Origin: Actinomycetota bacterium
GTDB lineage: Bacteria; Actinomycetota; Acidimicrobiia; Acidimicrobiales; JAJPHE01
NCBI GenBank assembly: GCA_027315345.1
Contig: DAHUYE010000098.1
Coordinates: 1,775-65,774 of the forward strand
Reading direction: 5' to 3'
DNA: 64,000 nucleotides
The first letter of the stretch is position 1; the number at the start of each line of letters is the position of its first letter. Made by a program: the position numbers and the translations under genes. The notes beneath the pieces were generated by a model that did no database searches, was not told where the DNA came from, and saw only the letters and a list, made by a program, of their open reading frames with translations. Shown here piece after piece: positions 19,097 to 25,231 of the stretch.

Positions 19097-20125
19097 GTGC
19101 GGGTCGGGGTCCTGACCGGCGGGGGAGATTGCCCGGGGCTCAATGCCGTCATCCGGGCCGTGGTGCGCAAGGGCGAGACGCGTTTCGGAGACGAGCTGGT
19201 CGGCTTTGCCGACGGTTGGCGGGGAGTGGTCGAGGACCGGGTGCTACCCCTCGACGTGGAGAGATGTCGGGGCATCCTGCCCCGGGGGGGCACCATCCTG
19301 GGCACCTCCCGCACCAATCCGTACAAGATCGACGGCGGGGCGGAGGCGGCCCGGGCCACCCTGGAGCGCCGGCAGATCGACGCCCTGGTCACCATCGGCG
19401 GGGAGGACACCCTGGGGGTGGCCAACCGTCTTGGCGCCGAAGGCGTCAACGTGGTCGGGGTTCCCAAGACCATCGACAACGACCTGTCCGCCACCGAGGT
19501 GACCTTCGGATTCCACACCGCCGTCCAGATTGCCACCGACGCCATCGACCGCCTGCACACCACGGCCGAGTCCCATGATCGGGTCATCGTCTGTGAGGTC
19601 ATGGGCCGCCACGCCGGCTGGATCGCCACCTACGCCGGCATAGCCGGGGGAGCGGCCGAGATCATCGTCCCGGAGGAGCCCTTCGACATCGAGACCGTCT
19701 GCCGCAAGCTGCAGGAACGCCACGCCAAGGGCCGCTACGCCTCCATCGTGGTGGTGGCCGAGGGAGCCCGACCCCGGGAGGGCACCATGTCGGTCACCTC
19801 CGGGGAGGTGGACCAGTTCGGCCACCAGCGACTGGGCGGGATCGGGAACCAGCTGGCCGAGGAGATCGAACGCCGGACCGGCTTCGAGTCCCGGGTCACC
19901 ATCCTCGGCCATGTGCAACGGGGCGGCACCCCCACCGCCTTCGACCGGGTCCTGGCCACCCGCTTCGGGATAGCCGCCATCGACGCCGTGCACGACGGGG
20001 ACTTCGGGAAGATGGTGGCGCTGCGGGCGGGCGAGATCGTCCGGGTTCCCTTGGCGGAGGCGGTCACCGAGCTCAAGACCGTCGATCCGGCCCTGTTTCA
20101 TGAGGTGGCGGAGATTTTCTTCTGA
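19097..20125 (+). CDS. pfkA: 6-phosphofructokinase
   Basis: LTGGGDCPGLNA, GGTILGTSR, PKTIDND, MGRHAGW, LGHVQRGG. Confidence 0.95.
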   Translation: MRVGVLTGGGDCPGLNAVIRAVVRKGETRFGDELVGFADGWRGVVEDRVLPLDVERCRGILPRGGTILGTSRTNPYKIDGGAEAARATLERRQIDALVTIGGEDTLGVANRLGAEGVNVVGVPKTIDNDLSATEVTFGFHTAVQIATDAIDRLHTTAESHDRVIVCEVMGRHAGWIATYAGIAGGAAEIIVPEEPFDIETVCRKLQERHAKGRYASIVVVAEGARPREGTMSVTSGEVDQFGHQRLGGIGNQLAEEIERRTGFESRVTILGHVQRGGTPTAFDRVLATRFGIAAIDAVHDGDFGKMVALRAGEIVRVPLAEAVTELKTVDPALFHEVAEIFF

Positions 20126-20161
20126 TCCGCCGTCAGGGGCCCTCAGGAGAGCCGCCCCGGC

Positions 20162-21199
20162 TCACGGCTCGTTGTCCTGGGGGGCGTGCGGGCCCAGTAG
20201 GGGACCGTCAGTGGCGATGAAGCTGGGAATGTGGCCGGTGCGGGCCTGCCACTCCGCCGCCCAGCCGGAGTCGGCCCCGACGATGTCCGGATCCCGTCGG
20301 TCGGCGCGATGTTGCTCCCGTTCATCCGAGCGCAACCACTGCCGGTAGATGGGGAGCATGGCGGCGGCTATGGACAACTCACCGACGGCCCACAACACAC
20401 CCCCCCCGGCATGGGTACCGGACAGCGAGTAGATGGAGGCGGCCGGGGAGGTCTCGCTCATCAGGGCGATGCCGAGGAACGACTCGAAGGGCACGCCGAT
20501 CAACAGGTTGACGAACTTGGCCCCGTAACCCATGCGCCAGTTGGGGATGGGATCAGGGCTGATCATCGGCCACCAGAAGAGAGTGCCGCCGGCCAGGAAG
20601 ACCACATTGAGGAAATCCATCAGGTCCATGTGGGCCATGGCGAATCCGAGCAGCGGGCTCAGGAAAAACACGAACATGATCCCGTAGTAGAGGAACCAGA
20701 CCGTTATGGGATGACTGAGGATGCGGAAGACGGGGCTGTGAAGAGCTTGCAGAAAGCGGGTCTTGGTCCGCGGCGAGGACGTCTGCAGAATAAGCGTGCT
20801 GGGCGCCCCCATGGCCAGAAGCGGCGGCGCCAGGATCATCAGGAGCATGTGCTGGATCACGTGGGATGAGAAGTTCGACATGGCGAAGGTGGCCACCGAT
20901 GACTGGAAGGCCAGCTCCACGGAGATCAGGCCGCCCAGGAAGGCGGCCGTCCGACTCCGCGGCCAGTGGCGACCCCGTCCCTCCAGCTGGGTGGTGGCCC
21001 GCACGTACCAGGCGGCGCTGAGTAGAAGGCAGGCCAGGACCACGAAGGCGAACGGTCCCGTTGACCACTGGGTCAGGGCGTTGTGCACATCCACCGGTTG
21101 AGCGCCCCCCATGCCCGACGTGACGGCGCCCGGGCCGCTGGTTCCGCCGGAGCCGCTCATGCCGCTCATGCCGCTCATGCCGCTCATGGCACCGGCCAT
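20162..21199 (-). CDS. ctaG: Cytochrome c oxidase assembly factor CtaG (Caa3_CtaG) with Met-rich N-terminus
   Basis: WPRSRTAAF..G, FSSHVIQHMLLMILAPPLLAMGAP, multiple TM helices, LFWWP. GGAGG RBS. Confidence 0.85.
   Translation of the reverse strand: MAGAMSGMSGMSGMSGSGGTSGPGAVTSGMGGAQPVDVHNALTQWSTGPFAFVVLACLLLSAAWYVRATTQLEGRGRHWPRSRTAAFLGGLISVELAFQSSVATFAMSNFSSHVIQHMLLMILAPPLLAMGAPSTLILQTSSPRTKTRFLQALHSPVFRILSHPITVWFLYYGIMFVFFLSPLLGFAMAHMDLMDFLNVVFLAGGTLFWWPMISPDPIPNWRMGYGAKFVNLLIGVPFESFLGIALMSETSPAASIYSLSGTHAGGGVLWAVGELSIAAAMLPIYRQWLRSDEREQHRADRRDPDIVGADSGWAAEWQARTGHIPSFIATDGPLLGPHAPQDNEP
21152..21187 (-). repeat. 9-bp tandem repeat x4 encoding (Met-Ser-Gly)4
   Basis: gccgctcat x4 on the + strand. 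Confidence 0.95.
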
Positions 21200-21212
21200 C
21201 CCACCTCCCGCA

Positions 21213-22136
21213 TCACGCCGCCGCCTGGAAACCCTGTCGGGCCAGTTTCGCCAGAGCGGCGGCCACCTCAGAGGGACGGGCCGTGCTCTCGTAGAACAGG
21301 TGGGCCTTTCCGTCCGGCGTGAAGATCAAGGTGTAGCCGGCGTGCACCACCTGGTAGCCCCCGGAATTGGCGTTGTTTCCGGAATTGTCGCGCTTCAGAT
21401 AGGACAACGGCATGTCCAGCTCGGACTCGGCCTGGTGGATCACGCTGACCGGCCCGGTGAGGCCGATGAACGATGAGTTGAAGTGGTCGAGCCACTGGCG
21501 GATGACGGACGGACTGTCCCGGTTGGGGTCGGTGGTGACGAATACCACCTGCACCTGCCTGGCCACGGAAGCGGGCAGCTCACTCAGGGCGGCGGCGTTG
21601 AGGGCCATGTCGGTGGGGCACACGTCCGGGCAGTGGGTGTAGCCGAAATAGACGAGGGTTATCCGGTTCCGGGAGATAGCCGGAAGGTTGAGGGCCTGGC
21701 CCGAAGTGTCGGTCAGGGTCACGTCCGGCTCAGGGTAGGCGGCTGGGCTCTGCACCAGACCCGGGTAGTTGGGGTTCTGCCCGCTGGGGCCGGCCACCTG
21801 GCTGACCTGGGCGGGCGGGCCGGCGTGGTGGCCGGCCAGCACGGTGGCCCCGCCCACCAGCACGGCGGCCACCACGGCCGCGGCCGCGGCGGCGGTGACC
21901 GTGGTGCGCCAGCTCCTCGGGCGGCCCGGAGGCCCTGAGGCGGTGATGGCTCCCAGCAGCCGGTCGGTGAGATCGGGAGCGGGCCGGCCGGCCAGGGCTG
22001 TAACCCCTTGGTGGAGGGAGCGGGCCCGTTCCGCCCAGTCGGCGCACTCGGTGCAGTGGGGCGGCCCTGGGTCGGGCCCTTCCTCATCCAAGCAGGCGGA
22101 CCAGGACTCCCGGTAGGCGTCACACGTTCCGGTCAT
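21213..22136 (-). CDS. Fusion protein: zf-HC2/ZAS-like anti-sigma domain, TM helix, SCO1/SenC copper-binding domain
   Basis: N-term CDAYRESWSACLDEE...HCTECADW...PAPDLTDRLL; hydrophobic AAAAAAVVAAVLVGGATVLAG; SCO YFGYTHCPDVCPTD, VFVTTDPNRD, YQVVH. ATG 22136 overlaps the upstream stop (ATGA). Confidence 0.8.
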   Translation of the reverse strand: MTGTCDAYRESWSACLDEEGPDPGPPHCTECADWAERARSLHQGVTALAGRPAPDLTDRLLGAITASGPPGRPRSWRTTVTAAAAAAVVAAVLVGGATVLAGHHAGPPAQVSQVAGPSGQNPNYPGLVQSPAAYPEPDVTLTDTSGQALNLPAISRNRITLVYFGYTHCPDVCPTDMALNAAALSELPASVARQVQVVFVTTDPNRDSPSVIRQWLDHFNSSFIGLTGPVSVIHQAESELDMPLSYLKRDNSGNNANSGGYQVVHAGYTLIFTPDGKAHLFYESTARPSEVAAALAKLARQGFQAAA

Positions 22137-22714
22137 GGCGTACCTCCTACCAGAGCGCTCAGCGGCACCACCGGGACGCTTACCTCGACCGTGCCGGCCC
22201 GCTGGAAGTGAAGGGTCATGACGATGGTCTGTCCGCTGACCAGGGCGGAGCGGAGGTTTTCCAGCATGACGTGGTCGTGGGCCGGTCGTAGGACGGCTGT
22301 CCCGTGGGCGGGTATGACGAGGCGGGCCAGCGGCATCATCATCCCGCCGTTGCCGTCCTCCATCTCCTGGTGGAGGCCGGCCGACGCCGCCACCGGGGTG
22401 GACGCTCCCACCAGGGCGTCGGGCTCTGCGCCCAGGTTCCTGAAGGTGGCGTAGAAGGCGGCCACGGCCGGGCTGGCCGGGACCGGCACGAACGGATCGA
22501 TGACCTCGATGTCGCCCACCCGGGCCGCCACCGTGGCGCCGGCGGCCGCTTCGGAGGTGTCGGCCACGGCCGCGAATGGATGGTCGACGGGACCGGCTCC
22601 GGCCCGGTGGCCGGCGGGCCAGACCCACTCCAGGACCACCACCGCCGTCAGGATGGCCGGCAGCGCCCCCAGGGCGACCCAGCGCCGGTGGCGCCGCAAC
22701 GGTTCAAGGCTCAC
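22133..22714 (-). CDS. Copper chaperone PCu(A)C
   Basis: N-terminal TM; AAFYATFRN, LHQEM...MMM...VIPAHGTAVLRPAHDHVML (H..M..HxM Cu site); LHFQRAG. Confidence 0.88.
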   Translation of the reverse strand: MSLEPLRRHRRWVALGALPAILTAVVVLEWVWPAGHRAGAGPVDHPFAAVADTSEAAAGATVAARVGDIEVIDPFVPVPASPAVAAFYATFRNLGAEPDALVGASTPVAASAGLHQEMEDGNGGMMMPLARLVIPAHGTAVLRPAHDHVMLENLRSALVSGQTIVMTLHFQRAGTVEVSVPVVPLSALVGGTP

Positions 22715-23316
22715 GAACCGTTAGTGGGCCCAGCCGGCGTTCCGGTTCCCGGGGTCGGCGGAATTTCCCGGCCGGGCCCGTCGGCGGCGGTCAGCCACTC
22801 GAGCAGCTGGGCTCGGGCCCGGGCCACCCGGGAGCGGACCGTGCCCAGCTCGGTCTCGGCCACCGCCGCCGTCTCCGCGTAGCTCAAGCCGATGATCTGG
22901 GTCAGCACGAACGCTTCGCGGCGGTCGGGGTCCAGGCGGTTGACGAGATCGCCCAGGTCGTGGGCGGGGGCCGGATCGGGCAGGTCCGGGAGGGCGGATC
23001 GGCCCCGGGACTCCTCGGCCCGGCGCCGGCGGACGGCTCGGCCCACCGCCTCGATGCACACCCGCCGGGCGATGGTGAGCAGCCAGGTGGTCACGGCGGA
23101 ATCTCCCCGGAACCCCCCCAGTGACCGCCAGGCCCGCAGGAATGTCTCCTGAGTCAGGTCATCGGCATCCTCACCGGGGACCATGTGGGCACAGAACCGG
23201 CGCACCGGGGCCTGGGTCTCACTGAGGAGGATCCGCAGCGCCCTCTGATCACCGGAACGGGCGGCCAGAGCTGCGGCGGTGAGCTCAGCCGGGCTGAGGC
23301 GCTGGGGAGCGGTCAA
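22711..23316 (-). CDS. ECF sigma factor, SigC-like
   Basis: AARSGD, TQAPVRRFCAH, ADDLTQETFLRAW, TWLLTIARR, REAFVLTQIIGLSYAE, GTVRSRVARAR. TTG start overlapping the suhB stop. Confidence 0.85.
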   Translation of the reverse strand: MTAPQRLSPAELTAAALAARSGDQRALRILLSETQAPVRRFCAHMVPGEDADDLTQETFLRAWRSLGGFRGDSAVTTWLLTIARRVCIEAVGRAVRRRRAEESRGRSALPDLPDPAPAHDLGDLVNRLDPDRREAFVLTQIIGLSYAETAAVAETELGTVRSRVARARAQLLEWLTAADGPGREIPPTPGTGTPAGPTNGS

Positions 23317-24122
23317 TCCTGGGCGCCGACGTCGGACAGCAGCCGGCGGAAGGCGTCGGCCACGGAGGGGGCGACGGCCAGGACCAGCTGGTCGGTGGGC
23401 TCGGGTCCGTGCAGGTCACCCACCACCGCCCCGGCCTCCCGGGCGATGAGGCCGCCGGCGGCCCGGTCCCAGTGGTGGGTGCCGCGTTCGAAATAGGCGT
23501 CCAGGCGCCCGGCTCCCACCGCGCAGAGGTCGAGGGCGGCCGAGCCGGTCCGGCGGATGTCGCGCACCCGTCCCAGGATTTCCGACATGGCTGAGCCCTG
23601 CACCCGCCGTACGGACGAGTCATAGGCGAAGCCGGTCCCGACCAGGCTCATGCTGAGGTCAGCGGGTGAATTGACCGACAGGGGACTGGCGTTCAGCCAC
23701 GAACCCGAACCCAGAAGGCCGGTGAAGGTCTCGTCCCGGGACGGGTCGTGGACGACGCCCGCCACCACCGTCCCGTCGATCTCGGCTGCGATGGAGACGG
23801 CGAAGACCGGTATCCCGTAGACATAATTGACCGTCCCGTCCAGGGGGTCGATGACCCATCGGACCCGGCTGGGCCCGGTGCGGTCGCTGCCCTCCTCGGC
23901 CAGGATCGAGTCGTCCGGCCGGGACGCCGTGAGCACCTCCAGGATGAGCTTTTCGCTGGCCCGGTCCAGGTCGGACACCAGGTCGGTCCGGGTGGTCTTG
24001 GACTCGACCACGGTCGGACCGGAGCCCAGCCCGGCGAGGAGCAGTTGCCCGGCCTGCCGGGCCGCCGAGAGCGCCAGGTCGAGCAGCGCCGCCGGGGAAG
24101 GTTGGAGGGCGGCGTCGGTCAC
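23313..24122 (-). CDS. suhB: Inositol monophosphatase family (SuhB-like)
   Basis: [36 protein letters not shown]. Confidence 0.88.
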
Positions 24123-24205
24123 CGGGACGGTTTAGCCGGTGGGGAGACCGGGGCCGGAATCGGCCCGGACCGGGCCCTCCTCGGAGGTGGCTAGGTTCCT
24201 GGCCC

Positions 24206-25231
24206 ATGCCCGACCGCCCCGTCGATCTGCGCTCGGACACCGTGACCCGTCCGACGCCGGCCATGCGCCGGGCCATGGCCGAGGCCGAAGTCGGCGACGA
24301 CGTCTACGGGGAGGACCCCACCGTCAGGCGGCTGGAGGAGGTCTTCGCCCAGCGGCTGTCCAAGGACGCCGCCCTCTTCGTCCCGTCGGGGACCATGGCC
24401 AACCAGATCGCCCTGCGGTTGCTGGCCCCGCCCGCATCGGTGGTCATAGCCGGGCGTCGCCAGCACGTGGTGGCCTACGAGAACGGCGCCGGCGCCCGCA
24501 ACGCCGGGGTGCAGTTCCACCCCCTTCCGGACGATGACGGCCGCCTGCGGGCGGCCGACGTGGCGTGGGTGGTGGCCGCCGCCGCCCATCACATGCCCCG
24601 GCCCAGCCTGGTCTGCGTGGAGAACACCCACATGCCCGCCGACGGAGCGCCGTGGTCCCTGGAAGCTTTGGATGAGGTGGTGGAGGCGGCGGAGGGTCTG
24701 GCCGTCCACATGGATGGCGCCCGTCTCTTCAACGCCTCGGTGGCCACCGGGATCGCCCCCGGCGCCTATGCCGATCGGGCCACCACCGTCATGTGCTGTC
24801 TGTCCAAGGGCCTGTGTGCCCCGGTGGGATCCTTGCTGGCCGGACCCTCCGATCTCATGGCCGAGGCCCGGTCGCTGCGCTCCGGACTGGGCGGGGGCAT
24901 GCGCCAGGCCGGGATCCTGGCCGCCGCCGGCCTGGTCGCCCTGGAGTCGATGGTGGATCGCCTGGCCGAGGATCATGACCGGGCCCGGCGCCTGGCCGAG
25001 GCGGTGGGGGAGCGCTGGCCCGATTCCGGCTGCCGCCCGGAGCGGATCCTCACCAACGTGGTCACCTTCCGCCACAACGCGCCAGGCTCGGTGATCGACC
25101 ACCTGGCCCGGGACGGGGTCCTGGCCGGGACCATCGCCCCCGGGGTGGTCCGCCTGGTCACCCACCACGATGTCGATGACCAGGACGTAGCCCGAGCCAT
25201 GAAGGCGCTAGCGCTAGCCGGCGCCCCCTGA
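24206..25231 (+). CDS. ltaE: Low-specificity L-threonine aldolase
   Basis: [48 protein letters not shown]. Confidence 0.92.

What the first reader, a model, noticed from the sequence alone, without database searches (positions are those of the whole stretch)
21213..22136. Anti-sigma zinc-finger fused through a membrane helix to a SCO copper-binding domain: candidate one-protein copper sensor
Seen: the ORF starting at ATG 22136 has an N-terminal C5...C15...H27-C28-x2-C31 segment with the CxxxRxxxSAxLD(G/E)E and PAPDLxxRxL hallmarks of zf-HC2 (ZAS) anti-sigma domains. One hydrophobic helix follows, then a complete SCO domain (CPDVC plus the distal His in YQVVH). It lies two genes downstream of an ECF sigma in a translationally coupled run. 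Established: ZAS domains bind ECF sigmas in the cytoplasm, and SCO domains bind Cu via CxxxC+His outside the membrane. Inference: the Cu or redox state of the external SCO domain controls sigma release, so a CuA assembly chaperone doubles as the signal receptor. I do not know of a characterised ZAS-TM-SCO anti-sigma, but cannot confirm novelty without a search.
Basis: partly seen in the sequence, partly recalled or inferred. Interest (0 to 1): 0.85.

Follow-up and report, generated by a model that had tools for sequence, protein, structure and literature searches.

The report
Anti-sigma factor fused to copper chaperone
One membrane protein joins a sigma-factor-inhibiting domain inside the cell to a SCO copper-chaperone domain outside it, so the genes that deliver copper to the respiratory oxidase may be tuned to the state of the chaperone itself.

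Summary
The ORF is real. It runs 22136..21213 on the minus strand and encodes 307 aa: a cytoplasmic anti-sigma domain, one membrane helix and a complete SCO domain (CPDVC plus His265).

The N-terminal domain is a shortened ZAS variant. Pfam zf-HC2 does not match it, and its motif is H-C-x2-C rather than H-x3-C-x2-C. It is nevertheless homologous to canonical ZAS-SCO relatives (hhalign 98.4%, E 8.9e-15), and 25 of 36 family members match zf-HC2.

- All 12 full-length fusion loci with flanks have the same ECF sigma next door. None of 7 unfused SCO loci does.
- A complex model places the domain between sigma regions 2 and 4 (0.81, best control 0.13).
- A promoter, GGGAAC-N18-CACTA, lies 7 nt before the PCuAC start at 22750..22722. 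It is the only match in the window and recurs in all 12 loci.
- In relatives the same promoter also drives YcnI-like and second PCuAC-SCO genes.
- It resembles the published Corynebacterium sigma-C consensus (GGGAACT / CGACTA).
- One relative has a ZAS-membrane helix-PCuAC fusion instead.

Anti-sigma function is well supported. Sensing of copper state by the SCO domain is inferred, not shown. I found no paper describing this fusion. The family is rare: 1 of 401 sampled genomes of the class.

The parts
22711..23316 (-). ECF sigma factor, 201 aa, the presumed partner; closest named models are PRK12535 and SigC
   Evidence: Pfam Sigma70_r2 57 bits and Sigma70_r4_2 47.3 bits. NCBIfam PRK12535 131.7 bits and PRK09649 SigC 116 bits, both below their cut-offs. 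Among solved structures, the M. tuberculosis SigC fragments 2o7g (59.9 bits) and 2o8x (45.8 bits) match, against 75.8 bits for full-length E. coli RpoE.
22745..22750 (-). -35 element GGGAAC of the predicted sigma-dependent promoter, inside the 3' end of the sigma gene
   Evidence: It is the only match in the window to GGGAAC-N17-20-CWCTA; 0.04 are expected by chance. The same composite motif occurs in all 12 fusion loci.
22721..22726 (-). -10 element CACTAA, 18 nt after the -35 element and 6 nt before the GTG at 22714; this predicts a leaderless mRNA
   Evidence: The C. glutamicum sigma-C consensus is -35 GGGAACT and -10 CGACTA (PMC5483222, passage read).
22133..22714 (-). PCu(A)C copper chaperone, 193 aa, first gene behind the promoter; the only PCuAC found in this genome
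   Evidence: Pfam PCuAC 91.8 bits. One PF04314 match in G000.
21213..22136 (-). The fusion gene (307 aa): anti-sigma domain, membrane helix, SCO domain
21939..22136 (-). Residues 1-66: shortened ZAS-type anti-sigma domain with helices 3-16, 29-50 and 57-65; candidate metal ligands are C5, H27, C28 and C31
   Evidence: hhalign 98.4% against canonical relatives. AlphaFold2 helices. The complex model contacts both sigma region 2 and region 4.
21834..21911 (-). Residues 76-101: single membrane helix; the N-terminus is predicted to face the cytoplasm
   Evidence: AlphaFold2 helix 76-101. Arg-rich stretch RPRSWR before it.
21234..21776 (-). Residues 121-301: SCO1/SenC domain; C169 (21632..21630), C173 (21620..21618), H265 (21344..21342)
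   Evidence: Pfam 97.2 bits. The family profile hits the SCO structure 4bpy_A at E 3.8e-42. CxxxC is present in 36 of 36 relatives and the distal His in 35 of 36: 34 by the script, and P0080 by eye from the alignment.
20162..21199 (-). Caa3-type CtaG cytochrome oxidase assembly factor, the last gene of the operon
   Evidence: Pfam Caa3_CtaG 194.3 bits. It follows the fusion gene in L113, L116, L194, L196, L198 and L201.

Best explanation
The gene encodes a single-pass membrane anti-sigma factor. Its cytoplasmic N-terminal domain, a shortened three-helix ZAS variant, holds the ECF sigma factor encoded two genes upstream. Its extracytoplasmic part is a complete SCO copper chaperone.

When free, the sigma factor starts transcription at GGGAAC-N18-CACTAA (22750..22721). 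The predicted mRNA is leaderless and covers PCuAC, the anti-sigma-SCO protein and CtaG. This is the set that supplies copper to cytochrome oxidase.

The anti-sigma gene lies behind the promoter but the sigma gene does not. The circuit is therefore a negative-feedback loop.

Inferred mechanism: the loading or thiol state of the outer SCO domain decides whether the protein stays intact and keeps the sigma factor bound. Unloaded or oxidised SCO (copper shortage, stalled CuA assembly) would favour release, probably through proteolysis. Copper-loaded SCO would favour sequestration.

In this genome the fusion is the only classical SCO and stands beside the only PCuAC. It probably also works as the CuA chaperone.

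Status of each step:
- Shown by sequence: architecture, homology, gene linkage and the conserved promoter.
- Supported by a model only: sigma binding.
- Inferred: copper sensing, the direction of the response and the release mechanism.

My odds are about 0.8 for an anti-sigma role with this sigma and about 0.45 for sensing through the SCO domain.
For: Architecture and homology.

Linkage. A sigma 47-79% identical to the window's is adjacent in 12 of 12 full-length fusion loci. These are the window, L113, L116, L003/L193, L195, L198, L199, L206 and L201, plus L194, L196 and L197 from the unpublished genomes G402, G404 and G405. The sigma sits in two different orientations. None of 7 unfused SCO loci from the same scan has it.

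Seven further pairs of sigma and fusion proteins share the same longest-contig length, down to 2,573 bases. That they share a contig is an inference.

Complex model. The score is 0.81 and the best of 3 controls is 0.13. The mark was reached by 58 of 80 solved complexes and 2 of 110 mismatched pairs, roughly, because my own alignments were used. The runs share at least 98% of contacts and the partner's pLDDT is at least 86. Contacts fall on sigma residues 19-67 and 121-176.

Promoter.
- One match in the window, 0.04 expected.
- The composite motif with a start codon 5-7 nt later is present in all 12 loci.
- In G416, 6 of 7 genome-wide matches lie in its two fusion loci, against a control of 2+2.
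- It resembles the C. glutamicum sigma-C consensus (PMC5483222, passage read).

Targets are copper genes only:
- PCuAC, fusion gene and CtaG in the window.
- DUF1775/YcnI (151.9 bits) and PCuAC in G416.
- A second PCuAC-SCO operon in G425.
- DUF1775 behind GGGAAC-N16-CGACTAC beside sigma orthologues in G152 and G009.

Other support.
- G123 has a zf-HC2 (26.2 bits) plus PCuAC (94.1 bits) fusion directly upstream of the orthologous sigma.
- The anti-sigma domain is as conserved within the window clade (mean 55% identity) as within the canonical clade (53%).
- Sigma-C and SigC are tied to copper deprivation or aa3 oxidase defects (PMC7337898, PMC7924339, PMC8999054; passages read).
Against: - No experiment and no RNA data bear on this.
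- Pfam zf-HC2 does not match this copy.
- The canonical H-x3-C-x2-C motif and the second helix are missing, so zinc binding is uncertain.
- The complex pass may come from likeness to solved sigma/anti-sigma complexes.
- The isolated domain model gave no significant fold match.
- The promoter was assigned to this sigma by position and by likeness to a published consensus, not by a test.
- Nothing here shows how a copper-dependent change outside would cross a single membrane helix.
- A retained CxxxC-His site is equally expected for a plain chaperone.
- NCBIfam's SigC model scores 116 bits, below its 219-bit cut-off, so sigma-C orthology is not established.
Confidence: 0.55

Rival explanations
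1. Feedback tether without copper sensing. The protein is a working SCO chaperone whose N-terminal domain binds the sigma factor, so that sigma activity follows the amount of the protein. Release is triggered by something else, such as general envelope proteolysis or turnover, and not by the copper or thiol state of the SCO domain.
For: - The anti-sigma gene lies behind the sigma-type promoter and the sigma gene does not. That gives feedback without any sensing.
- The intact CxxxC-His site (36 of 36 and 35 of 36) fits a plain chaperone.
- It is the only classical SCO in G000.
Against: - The sensory module has been exchanged between two different copper chaperones in the same sigma family: SCO in this family and PCuAC in G123. 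That is hard to explain if the outer domain carried no signal.
- The common partner of this sigma family is a dedicated membrane anti-sigma.
Confidence: 0.2
2. Cytoplasmic sensing, as in RsrA. The Cys/His cluster of the N-terminal domain (C5, H27, C28, C31) responds to thiol oxidation or to cytoplasmic Cu(I)/Zn and releases the sigma factor. The SCO domain is a co-regulated working part only.
For: - C28 and C31 are invariant in 36 of 36 relatives.
- A His lies within 3 residues upstream in 36 of 36, and the first Cys is present in about 31 of 36.
- Thiol-switch ZAS anti-sigmas are established. RsrA is weakly hit by the family profile (5frf_A, E 0.35).
Against: - Many membrane-bound ZAS anti-sigmas use zinc structurally only (recalled, not tested).
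- The motif spacing varies within the family: H-x0, H-x2 and H-x3.
- A cytoplasmic sensor does not explain why the outer domain is a copper chaperone in two independent fusions.
Confidence: 0.15
3. Vestigial domain. In the window's clade the shortened N-terminal domain no longer binds sigma, and the protein is just a SCO chaperone with a leftover cytoplasmic tail.
For: - No Pfam zf-HC2 match.
- About 8 residues, the second helix, are deleted and the His is displaced.
Against: - The domain is conserved at mean 55% identity within the clade, like the canonical clade at 53%.
- Sigma adjacency and the promoter are kept in the window and in L113.
- The complex model uses this shortened copy and passes (0.81, best control 0.13; same caveats and counts as above).
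Confidence: 0.07

Closest known systems
Membrane-bound ZAS (zf-HC2) class I anti-sigma factors, such as RsiW with SigW of Bacillus subtilis (5wuq)
   Same: - The N-terminal helical domain is followed by one membrane helix and an outer domain.
- The family profile hits RsiW at E 2.8e-5.
- The gene neighbours an ECF sigma.
- The domain is modelled between sigma regions 2 and 4.
   Different: - The outer domain is a copper chaperone.
- This copy lacks the second helix and the H-x3-C-x2-C spacing.
- Pfam zf-HC2 does not match it.
Sigma-C of Corynebacterium glutamicum and SigC of Mycobacterium tuberculosis (ECF36)
   Same: - The promoter is nearly the same: GGGAAC(C/T) and (C/G)CACTA here, GGGAACT and CGACTA in C. 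glutamicum (PMC5483222, passage read). In other Acidimicrobiia the -10 element is exactly CGACTA.
- Both are tied to copper: copper deprivation and aa3 oxidase defects activate sigma-C (PMC7337898), and SigC prevents copper starvation (PMC7924339).
- SigC is the second-best NCBIfam model for the window's sigma.
   Different: - No anti-sigma factor is known for those two (PMC7826278 and PMC8999054, passages read). Here a fused anti-sigma-SCO is the partner.
- The reported targets differ: cydABCD in C. glutamicum; ctpB and the nrp operon in M. tuberculosis.
- Orthology is not established: 116 bits against a cut-off of 219.
SCO1/SenC/PrrC copper chaperones for CuA assembly
   Same: - Pfam match, the CxxxC-His site, an N-terminal membrane anchor and a neighbouring PCuAC.
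- Sco proteins matter most when copper is scarce (PMC7558416, section 6.3 passages read).
- PrrC of Rhodobacter sphaeroides has been proposed to relay an oxidase signal to a two-component system (recalled, not checked in a paper).
   Different: Known SCO proteins have no cytoplasmic regulatory domain. The 195,000-character review PMC7558416 contains no occurrence of 'anti-sigma'.
CnrYXH of Cupriavidus metallidurans (periplasmic metal sensor, anti-sigma, ECF sigma)
   Same: An extracytoplasmic metal-binding module controls an ECF sigma through a membrane anti-sigma (recalled). CnrH appears among solved relatives of the window's sigma (4cxf_A, E 1.3e-13).
   Different: - There the sensor (CnrX) and the anti-sigma (CnrY) are separate proteins, and the response is to excess Ni/Co.
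- Here the two are one chain, the module is an assembly chaperone, and the targets are copper-supply genes.

Membership tests
ZAS / zf-HC2 class I anti-sigma domain | H-x3-C-x2-C zinc motif plus an upstream Cys or His | tested here: not met
   The window has C5 and then H27-C28-x2-C31, that is H-x0-C. Among 36 relatives, 25 have H-x3-C, 9 have H-x0-C and 2 have H-x2-C.
ZAS / zf-HC2 class I anti-sigma domain | Match to Pfam PF13490 above the gathering score | tested here: not met
   No hit on the whole protein at E<=1, nor on residues 1-70 or 1-90 at E<=10. Of 36 relatives, 25 match at E<=0.01.
ZAS / zf-HC2 class I anti-sigma domain | Homology to bona fide ZAS domains | tested here: met
   - hhalign against canonical relatives: 98.4%, E 8.9e-15, 65 columns.
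- The family profile hits RsiW 5wuq_C at E 2.8e-5.
- The N-terminal part of the profile hits stand-alone anti-sigma ORFs at E 1e-18 to 1e-24. Two of these were confirmed as zf-HC2 (36.2 and 25.6 bits).
ZAS / zf-HC2 class I anti-sigma domain | Anti-sigma domain fold (helical bundle plus a fourth helix) | tested here: inconclusive
   - The models show three helices, not four.
- Foldseek found nothing at E<=0.001.
- VIA-align wide gave no Z>=5 and a best row of Z 4.6 (unrelated). RsiW 5wuq_C scored Z 4.3 (rmsd 4.8, 63 aligned), RsbN 6dxo_D Z 3.9 (7.8, 57) and RskA 4nqw_B Z 3.9 (10.4, 65).
ZAS / zf-HC2 class I anti-sigma domain | Gene adjacent to its cognate ECF sigma gene | tested here: met
   12 of 12 full-length fusion loci; 3 of them come from unpublished genomes.
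ZAS / zf-HC2 class I anti-sigma domain | Binds the sigma factor between regions 2 and 4; binds zinc | not testable with these tools
   Only a model is available. The score is 0.81 and the best of 3 controls is 0.13. The mark was reached by 58 of 80 solved and 2 of 110 mismatched pairs, roughly. At least 98% of contacts are shared and the partner's pLDDT is at least 86. The pass may come from likeness to solved complexes. Zinc was not modelled.
SCO1/SenC | Pfam PF02630 match above the cut-off | tested here: met
   97.2 bits against 22.8, residues 140-277.
SCO1/SenC | CxxxC plus a distal His as copper ligands | tested here: met
   C169-PDV-C173 and H265 in YQVVHAG.
SCO1/SenC | Sequence homology to solved SCO structures, and a confident model | tested here: met
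   The profile hits 4bpy_A at E 3.8e-42 and 2k6v_A at E 2.2e-27. Block pLDDT is 88-97 over most of residues 121-301, with a dip to 51-66 at about 241-270. No fold search was run on this domain.
SCO1/SenC | Copper binding and CuA assembly activity | not testable with these tools
   A COX2 (CuA subunit) gene exists in the genome (41.1 bits, contig C4), so a client is present.
Sigma-C / SigC type ECF sigma (ECF36), for the partner sigma | Match to the NCBIfam SigC equivalog above its cut-off | tested here: not met
   PRK09649 scores 116 bits against a cut-off of 219. PRK12535 scores 131.7 against 290.
Sigma-C / SigC type ECF sigma (ECF36), for the partner sigma | Promoter of the form -35 GGGAACT, -10 CGACTA | tested here: met
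   The window has GGGAACC-N16-CCACTA. Sigma orthologue loci of the class have GGGAAC-N16-CGACTAC. The consensus comes from a passage of PMC5483222. Recognition by this sigma is inferred.
Sigma-C / SigC type ECF sigma (ECF36), for the partner sigma | Assignment by the ECF classification's own group models | not tested
   Those models are not available here, and the supplements of PMC7826278 are closed.

The most novel reading that the evidence does not exclude
The occupancy of the copper-chaperone pool is itself the signal. In this sigma family a SCO domain (this family) or a PCuAC domain (G123) is the direct receptor of an ECF pathway. Transcription of the copper-supply genes for cytochrome oxidase is then set by how much chaperone is unloaded. 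In this genome the same polypeptide is both the main CuA chaperone and the receptor. If so, it would also point to the kind of signal that sigma-C/SigC-type factors read in corynebacteria and mycobacteria, where no anti-sigma factor is known.
Probability: 0.4. Interest if true: 0.8.

Novelty: new variant of a known kind. Interest (0 to 1): 0.7.

Why it matters
ECF sigma/anti-sigma pairs are well known, and so are SCO chaperones. A metallochaperone domain acting as the sensory end of an anti-sigma factor has not been described in the papers I could search.

It would be a compact way to couple gene expression to the demand for copper at the oxidase assembly line, rather than to free copper.

It also bears on an open question. 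Sigma-C of Corynebacterium and SigC of Mycobacterium respond to copper shortage or oxidase defects, yet have no known anti-sigma factor or sensor. Here a related sigma, with nearly the same promoter, is tied to anti-sigma factors that carry SCO or PCuAC domains.

Each step is directly testable. The pieces are small, the promoter is defined to the base, and the candidate ligand residues are known.

Tried and rejected
Searches and tests that led nowhere:
- Pfam on the N-terminal 70 and 90 residues alone gave nothing at E<=10.
- NCBIfam gave only sub-threshold hints: NF052375 'antisigma' at 1e-6 and 28.9 bits against a cut-off of 100.
- The sigma-70-type promoter and terminator scan of 19900-24400 found no promoter-like site and one terminator-like site inside CtaG, within chance.
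- My first promoter guesses were no better than chance: GGAAC-N14-19-CGAC gave 5 matches with 5.46 expected, and GGGAAC-N15-18-CGHMT gave 2 with 1.08 expected. A genome scan with them gave 45 and 19 scattered hits with no pattern.
- The strict final motif has 5 matches in G000. Only the operon's own site is convincing.
  - The C86 site precedes or lies within a Peripla_BP_6 gene and is unexplained.
  - The relaxed motif (82 hits) is noise.
  - In G416 the one match outside the fusion loci sits at an MreC gene, within the control rate.
- Fold searches with the isolated 72-residue model: Foldseek gave no match at E<=0.001, and VIA-align wide gave no Z>=5.
- The ZAS-PCuAC protein of G123 has only 2 database relatives at E<=1e-10, one of them 97% identical. 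It is a single case.
- Sequencing runs: no RNA holder is listed. Read laying was not used, because only contigs are kept and they cannot show transcript starts.

Literature. None of the papers listed by four searches dealt with an anti-sigma-SCO fusion, judging by titles and abstract starts; two searches listed only part of their matches. The searches were:
- 'anti-sigma' / 'SCO1' / 'zf-HC2' (most hits were Streptomyces gene numbers).
- 'anti-sigma factor' / 'copper chaperone' / 'ECF' / 'PCuAC'.
- 'SenC' / 'anti-sigma' / 'extracytoplasmic function'.
- 'anti-sigma' / 'YcnI' / 'PCuAC' / 'Sco' / 'copper limitation'.

Supplementary tables of the ECF classification (PMC7826278) are closed. They may list this architecture or the genomic context of ECF36.

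Rows left out:
- Alignment A1 holds 36 of the 120 proteins listed.
  - I dropped P0002 (identical to the window), P0012 (partial), P0049, and P0019, P0021, P0026, P0029, P0030, P0033 and P0069. The last seven cover 83-97% and have no precomputed zf-HC2.
  - I also dropped all SCO-only hits.
- P0014 was left out of both hhalign groups because it is intermediate.
- L200 (G403) is cut by its contig end and was not counted.
- L114 was not analysed.
Full report
THE OBJECT

On the minus strand, ATG 22136 to the stop at 21213 encodes 307 residues. The gene sits in a tight run of four genes:
- an ECF sigma factor (23316..22711);
- a PCu(A)C copper chaperone (22714..22133);
- this gene;
- a Caa3-type CtaG oxidase assembly factor (21199..20162).

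Their Pfam scores are: Sigma70_r2 57 bits and Sigma70_r4_2 47.3; PCuAC 91.8; SCO1-SenC 97.2 at residues 140-277; Caa3_CtaG 194.3. The first two junctions are 4-nt overlaps, GTGA and ATGA. An inositol monophosphatase gene lies upstream and a phosphofructokinase gene on the other strand lies downstream.

The AlphaFold2 model (mean pLDDT 80.3) shows helices 3-16, 29-50 and 57-65, a long helix at 76-101, a low-confidence linker and a confident SCO domain from 121 to 301. C169-x3-C173 and H265 are in place.

IS THE N-TERMINUS AN ANTI-SIGMA DOMAIN?

Not by direct Pfam matching. zf-HC2 gives nothing on the protein or on its first 70 or 90 residues. The motif is H27-C28-x2-C31, not H-x3-C-x2-C.

The family settles the question.
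- The protein search found 722 relatives. Of the 120 listed, 24 carry precomputed zf-HC2 plus SCO1-SenC over their full length.
- I aligned 36 full-length members. All 36 match SCO and 25 match zf-HC2.
- The window belongs to a clade of 11 sequences (62-82% identical). This clade has lost about 8 residues, five before the His and three between the His and the Cys. That removes the canonical second helix.
- hhalign of this clade against the 24 canonical members gives 98.4% probability and E 8.9e-15 over 65 columns.
- Motif spacing across the 36 is H-x3-C in 25, H-x0-C in 9 and H-x2-C in 2. The CxxC pair is invariant.
- The domain is no less conserved in the window's clade (mean 55% identity) than in the canonical clade (53%).
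- The family profile also hits the ZAS anti-sigma RsiW among solved structures (E 2.8e-5), and the SCO structure 4bpy at E 3.8e-42.

Fold searches with the isolated domain model were inconclusive.

PARTNER SIGMA

Every full-length fusion locus for which I had flanking DNA has a sigma 47-79% identical to the window's next to it. There are 12 such loci:
- the window and L113, where the sigma lies on the same strand upstream;
- L116, L003/L193, L195, L198, L199, L206 and L201, where it is divergent;
- three loci from unpublished genomes (L194, L196, L197), also divergent.

Seven unfused SCO loci from the same scan have no such sigma within their 1.5-kb flanks. Seven more sigma/fusion protein pairs share identical longest-contig lengths, which suggests but does not prove that they share a contig.

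The complex model of sigma residues 8-182 with fusion residues 1-72 passed.
- The score is 0.81 and the best of 3 controls is 0.13.
- The mark was reached by 58 of 80 solved complexes and 2 of 110 mismatched pairs. These counts hold only roughly because my own alignments were used.
- The three runs share at least 98% of contacts, and the partner's pLDDT is at least 86.
- Contacts fall on both sigma region 2 (residues 19-67) and region 4 (121-176).

Complexes of this kind are solved, so the pass may show likeness rather than binding.

PROMOTER AND REGULON

The divergent intergenic regions all carry GGGAAC, then 18-19 nt, then CACTA(C) or a close variant, on the strand of the fusion gene. A start codon follows 5-7 nt later.

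The window has exactly one match to GGGAAC-N17-20-CWCTA, with 0.04 expected by chance. It lies at 22750..22722, inside the last codons of the sigma gene. Its -10 element ends 6-7 nt before the GTG of PCuAC at 22714. This predicts a leaderless PCuAC-fusion-CtaG transcript.

It also means that the anti-sigma gene, but not the sigma gene, lies behind the promoter.

Across about 2.65 Mb of stored loci (both strands), the composite motif occurs in all 12 fusion loci and in related copper loci. The only other hit is a single stray in L148.

Genome-wide results for GGGAAC-N18-19-CACTA:
- G416: 7 matches, 6 of them in its two fusion loci; the reversed-pattern control gives 2+2.
- G425: 3 matches.
- G426: 2 matches.
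- G430: 1 match.
- G401: none; its own -10 element reads GTCTA.

Genes behind these promoters:
- PCuAC and a DUF1775/YcnI protein (151.9 bits) in both G416 loci.
- A second PCuAC followed by an unfused SCO in G425.

In G000 itself only the operon's own site is convincing.

THE WIDER SIGMA FAMILY

A profile of the sigma finds orthologues at E<=1e-45 in 100 of 401 sampled genomes of the class. I inspected 29 of their loci.
- In 14 (one from an unpublished genome) GGGAAC-N16-CGACTAC sits directly before a leaderless ZAS anti-sigma ORF of about 200 aa with a polytopic membrane C-terminus. I scanned two of them against Pfam, and both match zf-HC2 above the cut-off (36.2 and 25.6 bits).
- In G152 and G009 a second such promoter drives DUF1775/YcnI genes (130 and 58.2 bits).
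- In G123 the gene before the sigma encodes zf-HC2 (26.2 bits), a membrane stretch and a PCuAC domain (94.1 bits). The promoter after the sigma drives PCuAC (102.4 bits), followed by SCO (105 bits).

So the anti-sigma of this family has acquired a copper-chaperone ectodomain at least twice.

The published C. glutamicum sigma-C consensus is -35 GGGAACT and -10 CGACTA (PMC5483222, discussion passage). Sigma-C is activated under copper deprivation or aa3 oxidase defects (PMC7337898, introduction passage). M. tuberculosis SigC prevents copper starvation (PMC7924339, abstract and passages). ECF36 members of the SigC type lack a discernible anti-sigma factor (PMC7826278 and PMC8999054, passages). 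NCBIfam ranks SigC second for the window's sigma, but below its cut-off.

DISTRIBUTION

The fusion is rare.
- 1 of 401 sampled genomes of the class, G000 itself.
- 1 of the 80 best SCO loci among species-representative genomes, L003.
- 8 of 61 relatives of that genome, 3 of them unpublished.
- About 7 of the best 150 representatives at 50% identity, out of 1.84 billion proteins, cover both domains.

Record titles of relatives name Acidimicrobiales and Acidimicrobiaceae MAGs.

G000 holds one PCuAC, which is this operon's, and no DUF1775 (completeness 97.7%). It has a COX2 gene and a second CtaG. That CtaG lies on contig C100 next to CcdA and a weaker SCO-like domain (47.3 bits) fused to a TlpA-like thioredoxin. 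No sigma-type promoter was found on C100.

READING

Architecture, homology, linkage and the promoter are shown by sequence. Sigma binding is supported only by a model.

The following are inferred from three things: the copper-supply nature of every target, the SCO/PCuAC exchange, and the published biology of sigma-C and SigC.
- The SCO domain's copper or thiol state controls release.
- Shortage induces the response.
- Release goes through proteolysis.

The rivals are listed with their tests: feedback tether without sensing, cytoplasmic Cys-cluster sensing, and a vestigial domain.

Noticed in passing
L255:655-1449 (+), genome G123: A 264-aa protein has zf-HC2 (26.2 bits), a membrane stretch and a PCuAC domain (94.1 bits). 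It lies directly upstream of the orthologous ECF sigma. After the sigma comes a GGGAAC-N16-CGACTAC promoter, then PCuAC and SCO genes. This is a second kind of copper-chaperone-tipped anti-sigma. It has only one near-identical database relative.
   Followed up: partly
L232:854-1447 (-), L237:2102-2737 (+) and 12 further loci: The usual partner of this sigma type in the class is a zf-HC2 anti-sigma of about 200 aa with a polytopic membrane C-terminus. That part carries a conserved 'DAGLPVHxARHxGSF' stretch and matches no Pfam family. The gene is leaderless behind GGGAAC-N16-CGACTAC. What it senses is unknown.
   Followed up: partly
L113:3912-4003: In the closest metagenome relative (76% identical fusion protein) the PCuAC gene is missing. 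The promoter and the GTG-AGC start remain, followed by an open frame of roughly 17-18 codons (read by eye, not translated). Its stop overlaps the ATG of the fusion gene. It looks like a deletion remnant.
   Followed up: no
L199 / L222-L224 and L206 / L212, L216, L219 (genome G416): One genome holds two paralogous sigma/fusion loci. Each has three copies of the promoter, driving the fusion gene, a PCuAC gene and a DUF1775/YcnI gene. One of the two PCuAC copies is only 108 aa, with a partial Pfam match (26.3 bits).
   Followed up: partly
window 21187..21152 (-): Four tandem copies of ATGAGCGGC encode (Met-Ser-Gly)x4 at the N-terminus of CtaG (MAGAMSGMSGMSGMSG...). A Met-rich tail of this kind could bind Cu(I). 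It was not compared across relatives, and no tandem-repeat tool was run.
   Followed up: no
L002 (G000 contig C100:1641-5036): This is a second, probably constitutive, oxidase-biogenesis cluster. It holds CtaG, a CcdA-like membrane protein, and a protein that joins a SCO-like domain (CPNLC, 47.3 bits) to a TlpA-like thioredoxin domain (CAPC). The thioredoxin and CcdA assignments are by eye, not from a family scan.
   Followed up: partly
L210:3996-4024 (-) = G000 C86:22023..21995: This is the only other strict promoter match in G000 with a nearby start codon. It lies within or just before a Peripla_BP_6 binding-protein gene of an ABC transporter cluster. It could be chance or a second target.
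   Followed up: partly
L261:3703-4785 (-), genome G359: A 361-aa membrane protein with a signal peptide ending '...ALAH' sits behind GGGAAC-N16-CGACTAT beside a sigma orthologue. It matches no Pfam family.
   Followed up: no
L114 (1,668-base metagenome contig): A SCO domain (585-1184) is followed on the same strand by the N-terminus of an anti-sigma domain (1284-1511). This suggests a tandem of an unfused and a fused copy.
   Followed up: no
window 20100-23400: DNA runs labelled mine drainage metagenome hold this stretch (X6, 0.66 of the sampled words, study P1). X1 and X2, at 0.98, may be the source sample. Three 2025 runs of study P3 hold 0.71-0.77 and carry no organism label. None was laid.
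   Followed up: no
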